From contig OX597827.1 of assembly GCA_951406725.2 (NCBI GenBank), positions 41,974,001 to 42,038,000 of the forward strand: 64,000 nt of DNA, written 5' to 3'. Within the stretch, counting starts at the first letter, position 1. Each line of letters starts with the position of its first letter. The notes beneath the pieces were generated by a model that saw nothing but the letters and a program-made list of their open reading frames with translations, made no database searches and had not been told where the DNA came from. Shown here piece after piece: positions 13,350 through 61,081 of the stretch. The DNA is from Octopus vulgaris. Taxonomy: Eukaryota. The translations under genes were made by a program, and so were the position numbers.

Positions 13350-13421
13350 GTTTAAATCTATAGAAAAACAAAGTCCAGGACAACAAGCTTAAGAGTGGCT
13401 GTGGGGTAAGTAGCTTGCTTA

Positions 13422-15404
13422 ATGCTACGAAGTTGTCGCGTTGTTTTTCGTCGCGGTGGAAGTCACGTCGTACTTGAAAAATTGAACATTTGAAGTACGA
13501 CCACAGGTAAAGCATTTGTCTTTTGGGAGCTTAGTGAAGTATGTTGTCCGTATGGTTATTATTTTTTCGAACAACGGTCTCCACTGGGTTCCAGACATTT
13601 GTTTGCCAGTGGTCGTACTAAATTTTGGTGAGAATTGTGTGTGTTTTCGGGAGGCGTGTCACTCCGAAAATTTTTTTGAAATATCTATGACTGTGTTTGT
13701 ACCCTTTCAAGTGGATTTTTACCATAAATGATAGGAGTACAGCCGGAGTTGGACGGAATACTATTTGTGCTTTGAAGGACTACTGGTTTGGATTACCAGA
13801 GTAGCAGAATTGTGTTGTGTTGCCATTTTGGATTATCTTCCTTCGCTCTTTCTTCTCCTGTCTGTCTTTCTGATCTTTTTTGAGTTTCTTTATAGACTTT
13901 CATTTGAACATTTTGATTTTTGTTTGTGAATTTTTATTTTTGTTTTAGCTATCAGCATGGCAACTGTGAAATCCGCTTTGGAGTGGCAAATTGTGGCCTC
14001 CAAAGAATGGATGAAAAATTATACGGAGAGAACGGTGGTATTAAGGACCTATTCCAGGGCCCTTGACACCATCAAGGTCTTCTCTGAGGAAGAAATTGAG
14101 GAGGAGTTGGAAGACTATCTGCTAACTGTTAGGTTTATCCGCAGGGGTGTGAAGTATGGAACTGTATGTGTACTTTTTGACGGCCCTGCGGAAGCTCGTG
14201 ATTTTGCGAGCATACCTTTGGAAGTGGTGGAAGGTAGACACTCAGTATACAGGCCGAGTGGGTAGAAGACACTATCCGTCGTGGCCTGGGTGGCGGCCTT
14301 GCCAGGCTCTTAAAAATATTGCCTGCGGTTGATTGGGTGGGGTCAAAAGCAATTTTGACCCTATGGACCCAATCAACCGATGATCTGGTTTTACCAGATT
14401 TTTTAACAATGGCCGGTTCCAGGTACCCGGTGATGGTTGAGGGACCTCTCCCCAAGTGTTACCTGTCCCTGGAATCGGGCCATATAAAGAAGAGCTGTCG
14501 TCGGGACCAGGCAAGAGTCCTGGAACAGTTAATTGAAAAGGTGTCCTCTGCTCCCCCAATGGAGGAAAAAGTCGAGGTGGAGGTAACCTCCTCGAAAACA
14601 AAGGGGAAGAAAAGAAAGAAGGTGGGCAACAACAGAGAGGGGGAGGGAGAGTCCGCCAGAGATGTCGGAGGAATTCCACCCTCCCGTCGTAAAAGGAAAA
14701 AAGAAGAGAGAAAGAAAAACGGGGCATTGCCGGCGACGGCATGTCCCGAAACCCCTTCGGTGGAATGTGTGCCACCGGAGAGGGGGAAGAAGATAACTTC
14801 GTCAGTGGGATGTGTGCCACCGAGCGAGGGAGTTGAGGCCCCTCCCAGTGAAAGTGGGGAAGAATATATATTCTTCTATCTCAGGGGAGGGGCTATTGAC
14901 GTTTCGTGGAGAATGATATGGATAGTCGAATCCTGAGGGACCCGACTTGTATTAATAGCCCAGAGTGGCCTTCACAGGTGGCTGCTCTGGTGCTGGAAAG
15001 AAAGTACTGTGATCATATAATTGACTCGTGTAAAAACGAGAATTATAGAATTCATTTTTAGAGCCCCAGATTGCGGTTGCAGAAATGCCTTCAAGTTGCA
15101 AGAAAGTTACTCGGGGACGGATTGTAGAGGTTTATCGCCTCTAATTTGTGTATAAATTGTGTTTTATAATTGTACGGACTTTTTGTCCAAATATATTGTA
15201 TTTTAAATTGTAAGAGGAGTGATAACTCTGTATATGATGTTTTTAAAGAAAAATGTCTTAGAGAGCAGAGGGTCGGCGGGCGCTTTCTGTCTTCTCCCAT
15301 GTTTATCATTTTTGTATCATAATCATTCGCCTCATCAATTTCTATCTCCAGCCCGCAAAGCCACCTTATCTATGTGCTGCATACATGGCAAATTTAATGA
15401 ATAA
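13422..15404 (+). mobile_element. ORF1-only non-LTR retroelement (HAL1/Tx1-like), copy 1
   Basis: 14-bp TSD aagtagcttgctta at 13408-13421 and 15405-15418; ~535-bp 5'UTR, one gag-like ORF, ~280-bp 3'UTR ending in aataaa; homologous to 40818-43220. Confidence 0.85.
13957..15126 (+). pseudogene. Frameshifted ORF1p-like protein with degenerate CCHC zinc knuckle
   Basis: MATVKSALEWQIV...ERTVVLRTYS; CYLSLESGHIKKSC; basic, low-complexity C-terminal half; pieces in ORFs 13957-14265 and 14319-14936. Confidence 0.75.
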
Positions 15405-15561
15405 AAGTAGCTTGCTTACCAACCTCATGGTCCTGGGTTCAGTCCCACTGCGTGGCATCTTGGGCAAGTGTCTTCTATTATAGCCTCTGGCCGACAAAAA
15501 CTTTGTGAGTGGATTTGGCAGACGAAAACGGAAAGAAGCTCGTCGTATATATGTATGTATG

Positions 15562-15627
<66 letters not shown>

Positions 15628-15860
15628 TGTGTATGTTTTTGTATGTGTTTGTGTATGTATGTGTGTATGTGTGTGTGTGTATGTTTGTGTGTCTGTGTTT
15701 GTCCCCCCACTCAACAACCGATACTGGTGTGTTTACGTCACCCGTAACTTAGCGGTTCGGCAAAAGACATCGATAGAATAAGTACTAGGCTTACAAAGAA
15801 TAAGTTCAGGGATCGATTTCCTAGCATGGCCGTAGTCAAATGACTGAAACAAGTAAAAGA

Positions 15861-15916
<56 letters not shown>

Positions 15917-40446: not shown

Positions 40447-40953
40447 TTGTTTACACATAAGTATATACTCTTTACTCTTTTACTTGTTTCAGGCATGTGA
40501 CTATGTCCATGCTGCAGCACCGTTTTTAGTCGAGCAAATCGACTCCAGGACTTATTCTTTGTAAGCCTAGTACTTATACCATCGGTCACTTTTGCCGAAC
40601 TGCTAAGTTACGGGGACTTAAACACACCAGCATCGGTTGTCAAGCGATGTTGGGGGGACAAACATAGACACACACAAACACACACATATATATATACGAC
40701 GGGCTTCTTTCAGTTTCCGTCTACCAAATCCACTCACAAGGCTTTGGTCGTCCCGAGGCTATAGTGTCACACAGTGGGACTGAACCCGGAACCATGTGGT
40801 TCATAAGCAAGCTACTTTATGCCATAAAATTTGCCTTTACGGCATTACAAAGAGTAGCTTGCGGGCTGGACAGAAACATTAATGAAAAAAAACGTCCGCC
40901 GATTTTTCGCTTCTCTAATACATTATTCTTCTTTTAAAAAATAAAATGAGGTA

Positions 40954-41342
40954 TAGGCGCAGGAGTGGCTGTGTGGTAAGTAGCTTGCTAACCAACCACA
41001 TGGTTCCGGGTTCAGTCCCACTGCGTGGTATCTTGGGCAAGTGTCTTCTGCTATAGCTCCGGGCCGACCAATGCCTTGTGAGTGGATTTGGTAGACGGAA
41101 ACTGAAAGAAGCCTGTCGTATATATGTATATATATAAGTTTGTGTGTCTGTGTTTGCCCCCCTAGCATTGCTTGACAACCGATGCTGGTGTGTTTACGTC
41201 TTCGTCACCTGGCGGTTCGGCAAATGAGACCGATAGAATAAGTACTGGGCTTACAAAGAATAAGTCCCGGGGTCGATTTGATCGACTAAAGGCGGTGCTC
41301 CATCATGGCCGCAGTCAAATGACTGAAACAAGTAAAAGAGTA
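40954..41342 (+). mobile_element. SINE-C, full length, nested in the copy-2 3'UTR
   Basis: near-consensus head to tail; flanks rejoin into a sequence homologous to the copy-1 3'UTR. Confidence 0.88.
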
Positions 41343-41399
41343 TTAAACCTCTTACTTTGGTTTATTACAAATTTTCCTTTTGTCTTAAAAAAGAACGCA

Positions 41400-42660
41400 C
41401 AACAATGAGGCAATAAACCTTTTAGCCGGACTGAGACACCAAGTCTCTTCAATCATCCCTATCAATTTTCTTGCCGCCTTAAGGCAATCTCTCAGCCGAA
41501 AGTCGGGGCACCAAAAGATATAATTGTAATCTTCCTTCGAACAGGACTCCACTATTCAAAGGAACTCTCTTTCTTTTACCACCAGCGCCGCCACCTGCGA
41601 CGGCCAATGCTGCTGATCAGTACAGGCCGAGATCATTAGGTCCTGACCATCAAGATAGCTCTCAACAGAGTTGTCAACAACCTCTCCCCTAAAATAGAAT
41701 ACCACATATTCTTTACTTTCACTGGGAGGGGCCACAGCTCCCTCTGTTGGTGACACGATTCAAACCGAAGAGGCCTCAGAACATTCCGACAGTACACTGC
41801 ATACCTCCGGCACTGTTCCATTCTTTTTTATCTTTGGTGCGGGAGAGGTTGGCTCCTTCGCCATAACGGCAGGAACCTCGCTTCCTCCCGCAACCCCGGG
41901 ATCCCTCGGAGAGCAACCATTGTTTCTCCCCTTATTCCTTTTTCTTCCCTTTTTTCGAGCGAGGTCACACTCTCCTCCCATCTCTCCTTCCGGAGGAGGG
42001 TAGGGGTTCTTCCACAACTAACTGCTCCAGGAGCCTGATCTGGTCCTTGGGACAGTTCTTCTTAATGTGGCCGGGCTCCAGGCACTGATGACACTGGGTG
42101 AGGGCGTCCCTCAAGAATCACTGGATACCTGGACCCGGCCATCCTCAAAAAATCTGGGAACACCAGATCATCGGTTGATTGGGTCCACAGGGTCAAAACT
42201 GCCTTTGACCCCACCCAATTAGCCGCAGGCATCATTTAACATTCAAGACCTTGGCTCCGCTGTCATCCAGACCCCGGCGGATAGTATCCTCTATCCACTT
42301 GGGCTTTATTCCGGATGGCAGCTCACACATCCAAGCTCTCGTCAATTTCCTCCCATGATATGTGGGCAGAAACAGAATTTCCTCCCCTTCCAGAGACTGG
42401 CTTGCGTTTTTGCGAGTCTGCCCCTCAGGAGTAACAAATAGCAGCCACACTGCTGCATATTTGACACCCCTTGTAATAAACTTGATGGTTGGCAGGTATT
42501 CTGCCAACTCCTTCTCAATATCTACTTGAAAGAACACAGTGATGGTGTCGAAGGTTTTGGAATATGTCCTCAACACCACCGTTCTCTCATTAAGGTCCTT
42601 TACCCACTGATTGGGGGGCATAATTTCCCACTCCAAGACAGTGTTTTTATTTTTTGCTAT
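41400..42660 (-). pseudogene. Disrupted ORF1p-like protein with intact CCHC zinc knuckle
   Basis: start ATG>ATA at 42660; LEWEIM...ERTVVLRTYS...WIEDTIRRGL; CHQCLEPGHIKKNC (CX2CX4HX4C) at ~42052-42093; stops and frameshifts. Confidence 0.8.
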
Positions 42661-43279
42661 GCTTTGCAAAAAAAAAAAAAAAACGCAGGAAAATGTTCAA
42701 CAAAAAAGTTCGAAATATTCAAATAAAAGTCCGAAGAAACACAACGAAAGAACAGAAAGACAGAGCAGAGAAAAGGACGAAGGAAGACATTTCCAGCAGG
42801 GCAACAGAATTCCGCCACTTAGATCCGCAAATAATCCACAGGTAATCCTCCAGAATATTGCTTCACACAGCTACTCCAGTTCAATGTAGTAGCAAAAAAA
42901 AAATTCCTTCACGAATGGGTCGAATTTTTATAAACTTTTCAAAGTTTGGTAGCGAGACACGCCAACCAAAACAAAACAATTATCATCGCTAAGTGAGTTA
43001 CCGAGCGCGACTGCAGCAGACAAACGTTCGAGACCCAGTGGGGATTTCTTATATGAAAAAAGGAAAAACAATGTCATACAAGAAATTCCCCAATAAGTCC
43101 TTAAAAAAAAAGTGCGTACCTTGCAATCACACCTCTTCAACAGTTCTTCGATTCAAAACGGCCATCAACGCACGTCTTGACTGTTCAATCCGATAAGCAA
43201 CTAACAAACACGCATGCGCGTAAGTGAGCTACTTACCACGCAGTCACTCCTACGCCTATATGCGTACATTTATATATTA

Positions 43280-46843: not shown

Positions 46844-47256
46844 ATACATACATACATACATAGATATATACATACATACGTACATACATACATACATACA
46901 TACATACATACATACATACATACATACATACATACATACATACATACACTGAAACGATACAGCCTCTGAAATCATTACTAAAAGCACTGGCATTGAGGAA
47001 CTCTGCCAAGTACTGAGCATCGATGTTGTGGACAGTTTTTGTTAATGCAAGTAGGTCAAAGTTCCCCCGAAGTCAGGTTTTAGTGACCACTCTTTTTCCA
47101 ATGGATCGCCCGAAGTTGAAGTTGTCGTAGAAAGCTATTCTGCGAATTAGTAAAGCTTTGCGTGCTGCTGAGCCTAAAAGTGAAGACAGAATCCAATCAT
47201 CTAATCTCTTTGCGTGCATTTTGGCCAAAATCTGATAGTAAACATTCAGCAAGGCC

Positions 47257-47515
47257 GTGGAGATGCGTGGCTTAGTGGATAGTGAGTGGGATGCATGATC
47301 TTTAGATAACAGTTTCGATTCCTGGACCAGGTGACGCGTTGTATTCTTGAGCGAAATACTATATAAAACGTTGTTCCAGTCCATTCAGCAGGCAAAAATG
47401 AGTATTCCTACCACGGACCGGCGTCCTGTCCAGGTGAGGCATTTATACGTCATGAAACCGACAAGCCAGCCCTCATGAGTCGGTATGATTCGAGATGGTA
47501 ATTTTACCTTTACCT
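47257..47515 (+). mobile_element. CORE-type SINE related to 37468-37710
   Basis: gtggagatgcgtggcttagtgg...ggaccggcgtcctgtccagg. Confidence 0.7.
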
Positions 47516-57940: not shown

Positions 57941-58437
57941 AAAATTTCTGCAACTTTGGAGCTCTGAGCTGGTAACGCCATAATAACTTTCTCTGTTATA
58001 GTCAATGTGACAATCACACATCACATACGTTTCTTCCAAGCACTGATATACGCAGTGGAAGTGAGCTGGAATGCTAAAACTTAGGTCAATCTGTGCCAAG
58101 CCCCTTCATTCTACATGCTTCCGCTTCGTTACTACGGCAACAGTCCAGATACTTATTGATTAGAACTTGTATACAGTTTGTGTATCAAATAGCTAACTTA
58201 AGGCGATGGCCTCATGGAGCTAATAAGCGGACAGCTTTATTCTTATTTTTATAAGAATGCCATATTAGTATGGCGATAACTATTATTTTCCGGGAACGCT
58301 GCCGCTGTTCTCTTTTAGAGAGACTTAGTAATTTTAATATTTCTATTATTGAAAACAAGTGGATGTATTCCACCGAAACTAGGTAAATAAAACCATCGAA
58401 CAGAGATTGTCAGAAGCGACACCTACTGGCTGGCTAC

Positions 58438-58479
58438 GCTGCATTGAAAAGGGGCAATACCCCGAAACGCGTCTGTAGC
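58438..58479 (+). ncRNA. Minimal type I hammerhead ribozyme, U3-A8 variant (unit 1)
   Basis: gctgca-TTGAAAA-gggg caata cccc-GAAA-c gc g-TC-tgtagc; predicted cleavage after 58473. Confidence 0.75.
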
Positions 58480-58797
58480 TGCCGGTCAAGTACTGTGGAG
58501 CGACTGACCTCCCTTGTTCGAAGGTTATATGGATACAGTTTGTGCATCAAATAGCTAACTTAAGGCGAAGGCCTCATGGAGCTAATAAGCGGACAGCTTT
58601 ATTCTTATTTTTATAAGAATGCCATATTAGTATGGCGATAACTATTATTTTCCGGGATCGCTGCCGCTGTTCTCTTTTAGAGACTTAGTAATTTTAATAT
58701 TTCTATTATTGAAAACAAGTGGATGTATTCCACCGAAACTAGGTAAATAAAACCATCGAACAGAGATTGTCAGAAGCGACACCTACTGGCTGGCTAC

Positions 58798-58839
58798 GCT
58801 GCATTGAAAAGGGGCAATACCCCGAAACGCGTCTGTAGC
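58798..58839 (+). ncRNA. Minimal type I hammerhead ribozyme, U3-A8 variant (unit 2)
   Basis: identical to unit 1. Confidence 0.75.
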
Positions 58840-59159
58840 AGCCGGTCAAGTAGTGTGGAGCGACTGACCTCCCTTGTTCGAAGGTTATATGGATACAGTT
58901 TGTGCATCAAATAGCTAACTTAAGGCGAAGGCCTCATGGAGCTAATAAGCGGACAGCTTTATTCTTATTTTTATAAGAATGCCATATTAGTATGGCGATA
59001 ACTATTATTTTCCGGGAACGCTGCCGCTGTTCTCTTTTAGAGAGACTTAGTAATTTTAATATTTCTATTATTGAAAACAAGTGGATGTATTCCACCGAAA
59101 CTAGGTAAATAAAACCATCGAACAGAGATTGTCAGAAGCGACACCTACTGGCTGGCTAC

Positions 59160-59201
59160 GCTGCATTGAAAAGGGGCAATACCCCGAAACGCGTCTGTAG
59201 C
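59160..59201 (+). ncRNA. Minimal type I hammerhead ribozyme, U3-A8 variant (unit 3)
   Basis: identical to unit 1. Confidence 0.75.
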
Positions 59202-59364
59202 TGCCGGTCAAGTAGTGTGGAGCGACTGACCTCCCTTGTTCGAAGGTTATATGGATACAGTTTGTGTATCAAATAGCTAACTTAAGGCGATGGCCTCATG
59301 GAGCTAATAAGCGGACAGCTTTATTCTTATTTTTATAAGAATGCCATATTAGTATGGCGATAAC

Positions 59365-59402
<38 letters not shown>

Positions 59403-59436: not shown

Positions 59437-61081
59437 ATTTTTTATTTATCTAGTTTCAGCTCACAAGCTGTGGCCATGCTGGGGCACCGCCACTTGGTGT
59501 TGCTACATGATTTTACTTCACGAATGATTTTTAGCAATTGCCATTTGGTGCATGAGAGAGTTCGATGCAGCTGCCCTCATCTGCACCTCCTGCCGTGAAG
59601 TTGGTTCATCTGGGATACCTGACAAGAAGAGATCCAGTTTCATTTTAAAGGCATCTGCATCCACCCCATGCAGGTCTCTTAGGTTCTTTGGGAGGATATT
59701 GAAGAGCTGCGGGCCTCGGAAGCCCAGGCTATCACAGTATCTTGTCCTACATCTTGATGGCAAATTTGGAGTCCTTGGCACTATTCAGTGGCGCCCAGTT
59801 CTGGCATTTGTGTAACTCTCGATGCCAAAGTTTGGGACAAGTCCTTCTAGGATCTTCCAGATGTATATTATGGCATATCTTTCTCGCCTACGCTCTAAGG
59901 AATAGAGTCTCAATCTCCTGAGTCTTTCCCAATAGCTTATATGCTGCACAGAGGCTATCTTCTTCGTGTAGCTTCGTTGGATCGCCTCAAGTTCTGTGAT
60001 TAACTTGACACTGGATGGTGACCATAGCTGAGGGCAATAGTCAAAGTGGCTTAGAACAAGTGTCCTCCAGAGGACCATCATGATTTCCTGGTCTCTTGTT
60101 CTGAAGGTTCTAAGAATCCATCCGGTCAGCCGCCTACATTTCATTGCCAAGTTAGCAACATGCACATGAAAGGTTGCATCATCACTCATGTAAATACCCA
60201 GGACTCGCACTGATTGTGCCTCTGGGATTGCAATCCCTCCAGGTCCAGTGTATTTATTGGGTATTGCATTTAGTTTTGCGTGCTGATAGCATAGAGCTTG
60301 AAACTTTTCAGCCTGAACTGCATGCTATTCTTTTCAGCTCACTTGTATATTTTGTCCAGCTCACATTGCAGGTGCTTAGTGTCTTCAGGGTTCTGTATTG
60401 CCTGTGAAACTTTTGTATCATCTGCATAACTTGTGATCGTGGCTCTCTGCGTGGCTGAGGGCATGTCTGAGAGGGCCATTATGAACAGTAGTGGTCCCAA
60501 AATAGTGCCCTGTGGAACACCGCTCACTATTTACGTGTTAGTGGAAGTGGCCCCATTGGCTACTACCACCTGACTTCTATCTTTCAGAAAGTCATGAAGC
60601 TACTCTCCCAATTTTCCAACTATGCCAAGATCACGCAGTTTGTGACATAGCATTCCATGATCAACTTTATCAAAGGCCTTTGCAAAGTCGAGATATATGA
60701 CTTCCACATTTGAGTGGTTGAGCAGTCGTTTCGGCACCCAGTCATAGTGTTGTAGGAGCTGAGTTAAGCAGCTTCTTCTTGATAGGAAAACATTTTGAGT
60801 GTCAGGCAGCAAGTCATTTTCTTCAAGGAAGGTGATTAGTTTCCTTCTGATTATTCGTTCCATGACCTTGCTGATGTGTGAGGTCAGAGAGATAGGTCTG
60901 TAGTTCTTGGCCTCCGCTCTGCTACCTCCTTTATGAATAGGGTATATTTTACCTTCCTTCAGTTTTTTTGGAAGTTTGGCAGTTGCAAGGAAGCTCTGAA
61001 AGAGGAACTGCAGTGGTCTTGCTAGGACTCTCTTACATACTTTTAGAAGGATTGCTGGGAATCCATCTGGGCTAGTAGCTG
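59437..61081 (-). mobile_element. 5'-truncated CR1-clade LINE flanked by (TA)n
   Basis: RT coding remnant plus short 3'UTR ending ggcggtgccccagcatggccacagcttgtgagctgaaactagataaataaaa. Confidence 0.9.
59518..61080 (-). pseudogene. LINE ORF2 reverse transcriptase, disrupted
   Basis: NYRPISLTS, YLDFAKAFDKVDH, SGVPQGTILGPLLF, YADD, LGI, YWERL..L.LYSLERRRER; in-frame stops near 60600 and 60339 and frameshifts. Confidence 0.93.

What the first reader, a model, noticed from the sequence alone, without database searches (positions are those of the whole stretch)
40468..43258. Second insertion at the identical SINE-C nucleotide (copy 2), itself invaded by SINE-C
Seen: minus-strand host SINE-C (head 43221-43258, body 40468-40817) is interrupted with TSD taagCAagctactt / taagTGagctactt. 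The inserts of copies 1 and 2 look far more diverged from each other than their host SINEs do, and outer flanks are unrelated, which favours independent insertions by different subfamilies. A near-consensus SINE-C then inserted into the 3'UTR (40954-41342), so the two families were active over overlapping periods. Inference: the CA versus TG difference fits opposite-strand decay of one ancestral CpG.
Basis: partly seen in the sequence, partly recalled or inferred. Interest (0 to 1): 0.85.

Follow-up and report, generated by a model that had tools for sequence, protein, structure and literature searches.

The report
Octopus LINE family targeting SINE heads
This is an old, broken copy of a one-gene jumping element that, together with a still-active full-size partner element, inserts almost always at one exact base inside an abundant short repeat of an octopus genome, so one genomic parasite uses another as its landing pad.

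Summary
Observation confirmed at the stated coordinates. The insert is a decayed ORF1-only non-LTR retroelement, one of about 2000 search candidates in G000. A partner family turned up at the same site: a 5.44-kb L1/Tx1-group LINE (zinc-knuckle ORF1; endonuclease-RT ORF2) whose copies differ by about 1% and which shares the element's 3' tail. Copies selected on element sequence alone end at SINE position 25 in 30/30 (young LINE), 30/30 (young ORF1-only subfamily) and 19/29 (copy-1 subfamily). Near-identical elements sit in SINEs about 8% apart, and 5'-truncated and tandem copies use the same site, so these are independent targeted insertions, not a co-amplified composite. Part of the 5' 'TSD' is element-borne (13/13 informative young copies). 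The ancestral-CpG inference is unlikely: TG is the SINE consensus. Against: 12 of 30 junction-selected, mostly older copies lack the head; Tx1 placement and endonuclease specificity are untested. Closest known: Tx1L/Tx1D, Tx1-Mar/SINEU, HAL1. Ten literature searches listed no SINE-head-targeting LINE; this scan noted two similar two-copy cases in other genomes. New variant of a known kind.

The parts
43221..43258 (-). Host SINE head (positions 1-38), including the A-box-like motif and the 5' copy of the 14-bp duplication (43221-43234)
40818..43220 (-). Copy 2: full-length decayed ORF1-only non-autonomous non-LTR retroelement (about 2.0 kb without the nested SINE)
41517..42660 (-). ORF1 remnant with frameshifts and stops; 53% and 34% identical to the intact 414-aa ORF1 of a young subfamily; zinc knuckle near 42050-42090
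40954..41342 (+). Young SINE (TAAC subfamily) nested in the element's 3' UTR, opposite to the host; duplication of a few nt at most
40818..40870 (-). 3' tail with TGCC-loop-GGCA motif, shared with the autonomous LINE
40468..40817 (-). Host SINE body from position 25 (3' copy of the duplication 40804-40817; B-box-like motif; 21-nt deletion); older TTACG subfamily
13393..13421 (+). Copy 1 host SINE head remnant with the 5' duplication (13408-13421)
13422..15404 (+). Copy 1: ORF1-only element of a different subfamily
15405..15863 (+). Copy 1 host SINE body from position 25

Best explanation
The insert is an ORF1-only non-autonomous retroelement mobilised in trans by an L1/Tx1-group LINE that inserts at one site in the tRNA-like head of an abundant SINE. 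Shown: a fixed 3' junction at SINE position 24/25 in both families; duplications of 8-17 bp in 5'-truncated copies; tandem copies sandwiching one duplication; a shared 3' tail; open ORF2 with endonuclease, RT and zf-RVT domains in young LINE copies; insertion into pre-existing SINEs of different ages; a target-like 5' leader carried by full-length copies. Inferred: the APE endonuclease nicks the bottom strand at 5'-GCTACTT/ACCA-3'; ORF2 recognises the shared tail and primes reverse transcription there; the cDNA end pairs with the target top strand through the leader, replacing positions 35-40 of the host; each insertion separates the host SINE's A and B boxes and disables its promoter. Copy 2 is one such event, roughly 20 My old on a borrowed rate, later hit by a young SINE.
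For: 3' junction at position 25 in 30/30 young LINE loci (one is the query's locus), 20/20 and 30/30 young ORF1-only loci (sets overlap), 18 of 19 copy-2-subfamily loci with an intact 3' end, 19/29 copy-1-subfamily loci (read by eye). Young LINE: element p 0.003 vs host p 0.084 over 28 loci; 69 of 78 identical-element pairs have hosts at least 5% apart. Young ORF1-only: 0.005 vs 0.067, 19 loci. Older copies: Mantel r -0.21, p 0.87, 23 loci. Truncated copies joined to a head: L047, L056, L059, L060, L094, L099, L108, L140. Host-private changes on both sides of the duplication: L140, L196. Tandems in both orders: L131/L160, L155, L158/L159, L190. ORF2 domains, best solved match human L1 ORF2p E 9e-67 vs R2 1e-19, catalytic motifs aligned. 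Shared tail. ORF1 homology 29% over 196 aa, E 8e-24; codon-position differences 0.30/0.22/0.41 between copies 1 and 2.
Against: 12 of 30 junction-selected loci are 5'-truncated with no SINE head at the break, and 5 more were not followed to their 5' end. 10 of 29 copy-1-subfamily loci are off the canonical site. The young LINE has no DNA similarity to the ORF1-only elements outside the tail, so the driver of copy 2 was an older relative that I did not reconstruct. No locus-specific empty allele was obtained. No endonuclease or retrotransposition assay exists.
Confidence: 0.9

Rival explanations
1. Composite co-amplification: SINE head, element and SINE body are copied as one unit from a few master loci.
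For: Both junctions are uniform in full-length copies; 12 of 30 junction-selected loci have element 3' end plus SINE body without a head, as a truncated read-through product would.
Against: Identical elements in hosts 5-25% apart; no distance correlation; truncated copies keep the head; no duplication brackets the 12 headless composites (best match 4-8 nt vs control mean 6.1); in the young subfamily only 1 of 30 is headless within 1.5 kb, so the class looks like later decay.
Confidence: 0.03
2. Targeting is set mainly by RNA-DNA pairing (read-through transcript carrying SINE sequence at its 3' end anneals to the nick) with a loosely specific L1-like endonuclease, rather than by endonuclease specificity.
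For: The first 9 nt after the junction are nearly invariant in young copies; the 5' leader shows that target-like sequence travels with the element; off-target copy-1 insertions often begin with AAG; PMC6895275 (passage) notes target sequence in the RNA matters for several site-specific LINEs.
Against: Host-private changes occur within the 3' repeat from position 26-35 (L196, L199, L143, L149), so that DNA is host-derived; Tx1L endonuclease is sequence-specific by itself (PMC1950540, passages). This differs from the best explanation in one step only, and both could act.
Confidence: 0.3
3. The ORF1-only elements use a different autonomous driver than this LINE lineage.
For: ORF1s are only 29% identical and the 5' UTRs are unrelated; another LINE family 65% similar exists (L169); not all LINE families of G000 were surveyed.
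Against: Same junction base, same tail, same 5' leader, both young at once, interleaved tandems; older LINE copies match copy-2-type tails closely.
Confidence: 0.1

Closest known systems
Tx1-Mar LINEs and their SINEU passengers, crocodilians (PMC4494074; passages and section 15 read)
   Same: Tx1 LINE prefers a site in another, abundant transposon; non-autonomous passenger shares the target; tandem insertions sandwich one TSD.
   Different: Target there is a Mariner DNA transposon, here a tRNA-type SINE head; passenger there is a non-coding snRNA-derived SINE, here a 2.0-2.2-kb ORF1-coding element; young families here hit one base in 30/30.
Tx1L of Xenopus in Tx1D (PMC4494074, PMC1950540; passages)
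   Same: APE-type LINE that inserts at a fixed site of another mobile element through a specific endonuclease.
   Different: Target is a DNA transposon; the grafted Tx1L hairpin loop in PDB 2V0R is two residues longer than the aligned loop here; specificity here is not assayed.
HAL1, HeT-A, Ag-Sponge: ORF1-present non-autonomous LINEs (PMC5753468, PMC5786205; passages)
   Same: Encodes ORF1 only, keeps the LINE 3' end, needs ORF2 in trans.
   Different: Those passages describe internal-deletion derivatives; here ORF1 is 29% identical and the 5' UTR unrelated to the current partner, there is no long poly(A) tail, and the element is site-specific.
R2 5'-junction formation with co-transcribed target sequence (PMC6895275; passages)
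   Same: Target-like sequence at the RNA 5' end is thought to let the cDNA pair with the upstream target.
   Different: R2 is an RLE element in 28S rDNA retaining 27 nt after ribozyme cleavage; here an APE element with a leader of about 6-9 nt; no ribozyme was looked for.

Membership tests
Tx1 clade (partner LINE) | ORF2 with APE endonuclease, RT and C-terminal zinc knuckle, L1-group affinity | tested here: met
   Pfam Exo_endo_phos, RVT_1, zf-RVT; best PDB match L1 ORF2p E 9e-67
Tx1 clade (partner LINE) | Type I ORF1 (RRM plus CCHC), not Transposase_22 | tested here: inconclusive
   zf-CCHC E 2e-5, no Transposase_22, no RRM hit in Pfam; Atlas look-alikes of the related ORF1 are CCHC and ZCCHC3-RBD clusters at 0.91-0.93; fold model unusable; PMC5203782 passages link type I variants to Tx1
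Tx1 clade (partner LINE) | Target specificity (over 20% of flanks of one repeat type, criterion of PMC4494074) | tested here: met
   30/30
Tx1 clade (partner LINE) | RT phylogeny inside Tx1 rather than L1 proper | not testable with these tools
   Homologue hits carried no clade names; no Repbase set held
HAL1-type ORF1-only non-autonomous LINE (the insert) | ORF1 present and conserved | tested here: met
   Open 414-aa ORF in 8 of 20 young copies; third-position bias between copies 1 and 2
HAL1-type ORF1-only non-autonomous LINE (the insert) | No ORF2 | tested here: met
   No ORF2 tblastn hit inside either window insert; young copies are 2.2 kb between head and body
HAL1-type ORF1-only non-autonomous LINE (the insert) | 3' end shared with an autonomous LINE | tested here: met
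HAL1-type ORF1-only non-autonomous LINE (the insert) | Recognisable internal-deletion derivative of its partner (5' part shared at DNA level) | tested here: not met
   No DNA similarity outside the tail to the young LINE; ORF1 29% identical. It works like HAL1 but is not filed as HAL1.
tRNA-derived (CORE-type) SINE (the target) | A and B boxes, tRNA-like head, CORE motif | tested here: inconclusive
   Box-like motifs at 13 and 56 (box consensus recalled); CCTTGGG follows the head, a CORE motif per PMC5786205 passage; no tRNA call by ARAGORN or Rfam; identity with published octopus SINEs not tested
Target-primed reverse transcription product | TSD, fixed 3' end, variable 5' truncation | tested here: met
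   12 headless copies unexplained in detail

The most novel reading that the evidence does not exclude
A long-lived three-party system: an active LINE specialised on the promoter region of the genome's dominant SINE disables every copy it hits; an ORF1-only lineage has ridden it for tens of millions of years under selection on its own ORF1; and both refresh a short target-mimicking 5' leader from their host SINEs, so 5' joining has tracked SINE subfamily turnover (TTAC leaders in old subfamilies, TAAC in both young families).
Probability: 0.4. Interest if true: 0.72.

Novelty: new variant of a known kind. Interest (0 to 1): 0.56.

Why it matters
Known target-specific Tx1 elements use RNA genes, microsatellites, DNA transposons or LTR elements (PMC4494074). 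A SINE head is a different kind of target: tens of thousands of dispersed, evolving, dispensable sites. With young open-frame copies, old copies and three datable SINE subfamilies in one genome, one can test how an APE endonuclease tracks a moving target, how full-length 5' junctions form, and what an ORF1-only passenger contributes. It also explains a recurring split-SINE pattern that automated octopus repeat annotation would fragment.

Tried and rejected
Empty-allele test: contigs of four runs laid on a young LINE locus; head-to-body joints appeared in all four but had only 18-26 nt sides and come from paralogous SINEs, so inconclusive; the run did show the LINE at high identity in organisms A-D. 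No RNA holder was listed, which says nothing about expression. Single-sequence fold of ORF1 gave pLDDT 39.9 and was not searched. Pfam found nothing on 3 of 4 old ORF1 pieces nor on copy 1's piece. ARAGORN and Rfam found no tRNA in the SINE. Named Tx1 references could not be obtained. Outer duplications around 12 headless composites were sought and not found. The global alignment identity of 77% between copies 1 and 2 was discarded as gap-inflated. The tree of young LINE copies only partly groups the 5' leader variants (one clade of three, two of them tandem neighbours), so inheritance of single leader variants is not established. PMC8869645 (Dada) has no SINE mention. Scan note e1-3914074 was a chance word match.

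Full report
Observation. The structure is as described. On the minus strand a SINE head (43221-43258) is separated from its body (40468-40817) by an insert (40818-43220) bounded by 14-bp repeats at 43221-43234 and 40804-40817. Copy 1 (13422-15404) has the same junctions, SINE positions 25 and 38 when numbered on the nested copy 40954-41342. The inserts differ at 27.6% of ORF-core sites, the host SINEs at 14.2% of their first 140 nt, an ordinary SINE-to-SINE distance in this window. Outer flanks are unrelated. The nested SINE is 1.5% from the youngest SINE subfamily, and the host belongs to an older one (3.5% over 115 sites). The genome G000 is octopus-type, inferred from protein relatives in Octopus sinensis and Argonauta hians.

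What the insert is. An ORF piece of copy 2 has 1933 first-look candidates in G000. Of the 29 best other loci, 23 have a SINE head at the 5' end, 2 follow another copy in tandem and 4 have neither; 18 continue into SINE position 25, 1 into position 51 after a deletion, 1 into non-SINE DNA, and 9 have lost the 3' end. A young subfamily exists (37 of 40 listed hits at 99-100% over the whole query): 2.2 kb, with an open 414-aa ORF in 8 of 20 copies. That protein has a zinc knuckle (E 0.008, below cut-off) and resembles CCHC and ZCCHC3-type RNA-binding clusters. Copy 2's remnant (41517-42660) is 53% and 34% identical to it, and neither window insert has ORF2. Differences between copies 1 and 2 by codon position are 0.30, 0.22 and 0.41 over 272 codons, the order expected from purifying selection while the subfamilies diverged.

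The partner. A pattern for the 3' junction has 335 exact matches and 0 reversed-control matches. Seven of the first 30 had a different body, and two of those seven were 5.44-kb LINEs in the same site. ORF1 has zf-CCHC; ORF2 has endonuclease, RT and zf-RVT domains, matches human L1 ORF2p best (E 9e-67; R2 1e-19) and keeps the endonuclease catalytic motifs. Full-length copies differ by 1.0% on average, and 7 of 20 have an ORF2 frame over 1100 codons. It shares only the last 35-50 nt with the ORF1-only elements at DNA level, plus distant ORF1 homology (29% over 196 aa). Contigs of four runs from organisms A-D hold it at high identity.

Targeting. Queries made of element sequence only gave these 3' junctions at SINE position 25: 30 of 30 young LINE loci (28 with SINE body; 2 with the duplication followed by another element; one locus is the query's own); 20 of 20 young ORF1-only loci chosen by ORF; 30 of 30 chosen in genome order from 190 exact tail matches (this set overlaps the previous one); and 19 of 29 for the older copy-1 subfamily (read by eye). 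Of the 10 misses, 2 are at other AAG-like places in the SINE and 3 show clear 13-15-bp duplications elsewhere. At the 5' end, 17 of 20 young LINE loci have a head, 2 are tandem and 1 has lost its 5' part. Chance is 1e-5 to 1e-4 per insertion.

Independent insertion versus composite. Young LINE tails differ by 0.3% while their hosts differ by 8.4% (1.4-25%); 69 of 78 identical pairs have hosts at least 5% apart (28 loci, two tandem loci left out). Young ORF1-only copies give 0.5% against 6.7% (19 of 20 loci). Older copies show no correlation (23 loci with both core and body). Truncated copies of about 0.1-1.6 kb join a head with 8-17-bp duplications. L140 and L196 carry host-private changes on both sides. 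Each family has inserted at the duplication of the other (L131/L160, L155). Against this, 12 of 30 junction-selected loci are truncated with no head, 5 were not followed to the 5' end, and 2 are complex. No duplication brackets the 12, and only 1 of 30 young copies is headless within 1.5 kb, so later deletion or insertion is the likelier cause (inference).

The 5' junction. In 19 of 20 full-length young LINE rows the 5' junction ends in CTAACC whatever the host has at the 3' side (L151 and L156 were left out). All 8 LINE hosts and all 5 ORF1-only hosts with a different 3' sequence still show TAAC at the 5' side. L196 shows host sequence through position 31, and L143 and L149 show element sequence from position 35. 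Old subfamilies, copies 1 and 2 included, have TTAC leaders like older SINEs. Pairing of the cDNA end with the target, as proposed for R2 (PMC6895275, passages), is my inference. The ancestral-CpG idea needs a 0.45% host variant plus two decays; one-sided TG to CG to CA is simpler.

Age. Copy 2 has a terminal branch of 0.072 in a star-like subfamily. At the rate of 0.0036 per My used in PMC13282606 this is about 20 My; the rate is borrowed and the figure rough.

Comparison and novelty. Tx1 elements that target other transposons, with passengers sharing the target, are described (PMC4494074: passages and section 15; PMC1950540: passages). ORF1-only non-autonomous LINEs are a named class (PMC5753468, PMC5786205: passages). 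The Octopus vulgaris annotation (PMC13282606: parts 1 and 2 of 3, and its one supplement searched) lists 13 recently active L1-Tx1 families and says nothing on targets; PMC8967140, PMC4758252 and PMC5203782 (passages) and PMC8869645 (term search) add none. Ten searches listed no SINE-head-targeting LINE, but subscription journals, Repbase Reports and the Zenodo library were not searchable. Two unchecked notes of this scan report two-copy LINE-in-SINE cases in other genomes; they did not match this family by sequence. Placement in Tx1 proper was not testable.

Verdict. Real, genome-wide and still young: a SINE-targeting L1/Tx1-group LINE with an ORF1-only passenger, of which this finding is one old copy. 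New variant of a known kind; interest 0.56.

Noticed in passing
L158/L159 (G000:C9:2664000-2682900): Three young LINE copies in direct tandem inside one SINE, each separated by the duplication.
   Followed up: partly
L215, L218, L219, L225: A mosaic ORF1-only subfamily: 3' 600 nt about 90% and 5' part about 70% identical to the young subfamily; several subfamilies seem active at once.
   Followed up: no
L190, L191, L200, L059: A further ORF1-only subfamily (about 30% identical in the C-terminal half) sits in tandem upstream of young copies; L059 is a short piece of it.
   Followed up: partly
L066 (L050) near the junction: SINE positions 3-124 precede a 209-nt LINE piece followed by SINE position 25 onward: an apparent 100-bp duplication.
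   Followed up: no
L169:6722-8323: Another LINE family 65-70% similar to the partner's ORF2 region; its target was not examined.
   Followed up: no
L083 and L109: Copy-1-subfamily insertions at secondary AAG-like sites within the SINE (about position 150, and the tail).
   Followed up: partly
window 58168-59370: Tandem repeat of about 360 bp, 98-99% identical between units.
   Followed up: no
window 60471-61067 and 46944-47264: Decayed RT fragments of unrelated LINEs on the minus strand.
   Followed up: no
P0218 (Octopus sinensis LOC115225585): An annotated 'uncharacterized protein' 64% identical to the ORF1 of the ORF1-only element; probably a transposon ORF annotated as a gene.
   Followed up: no
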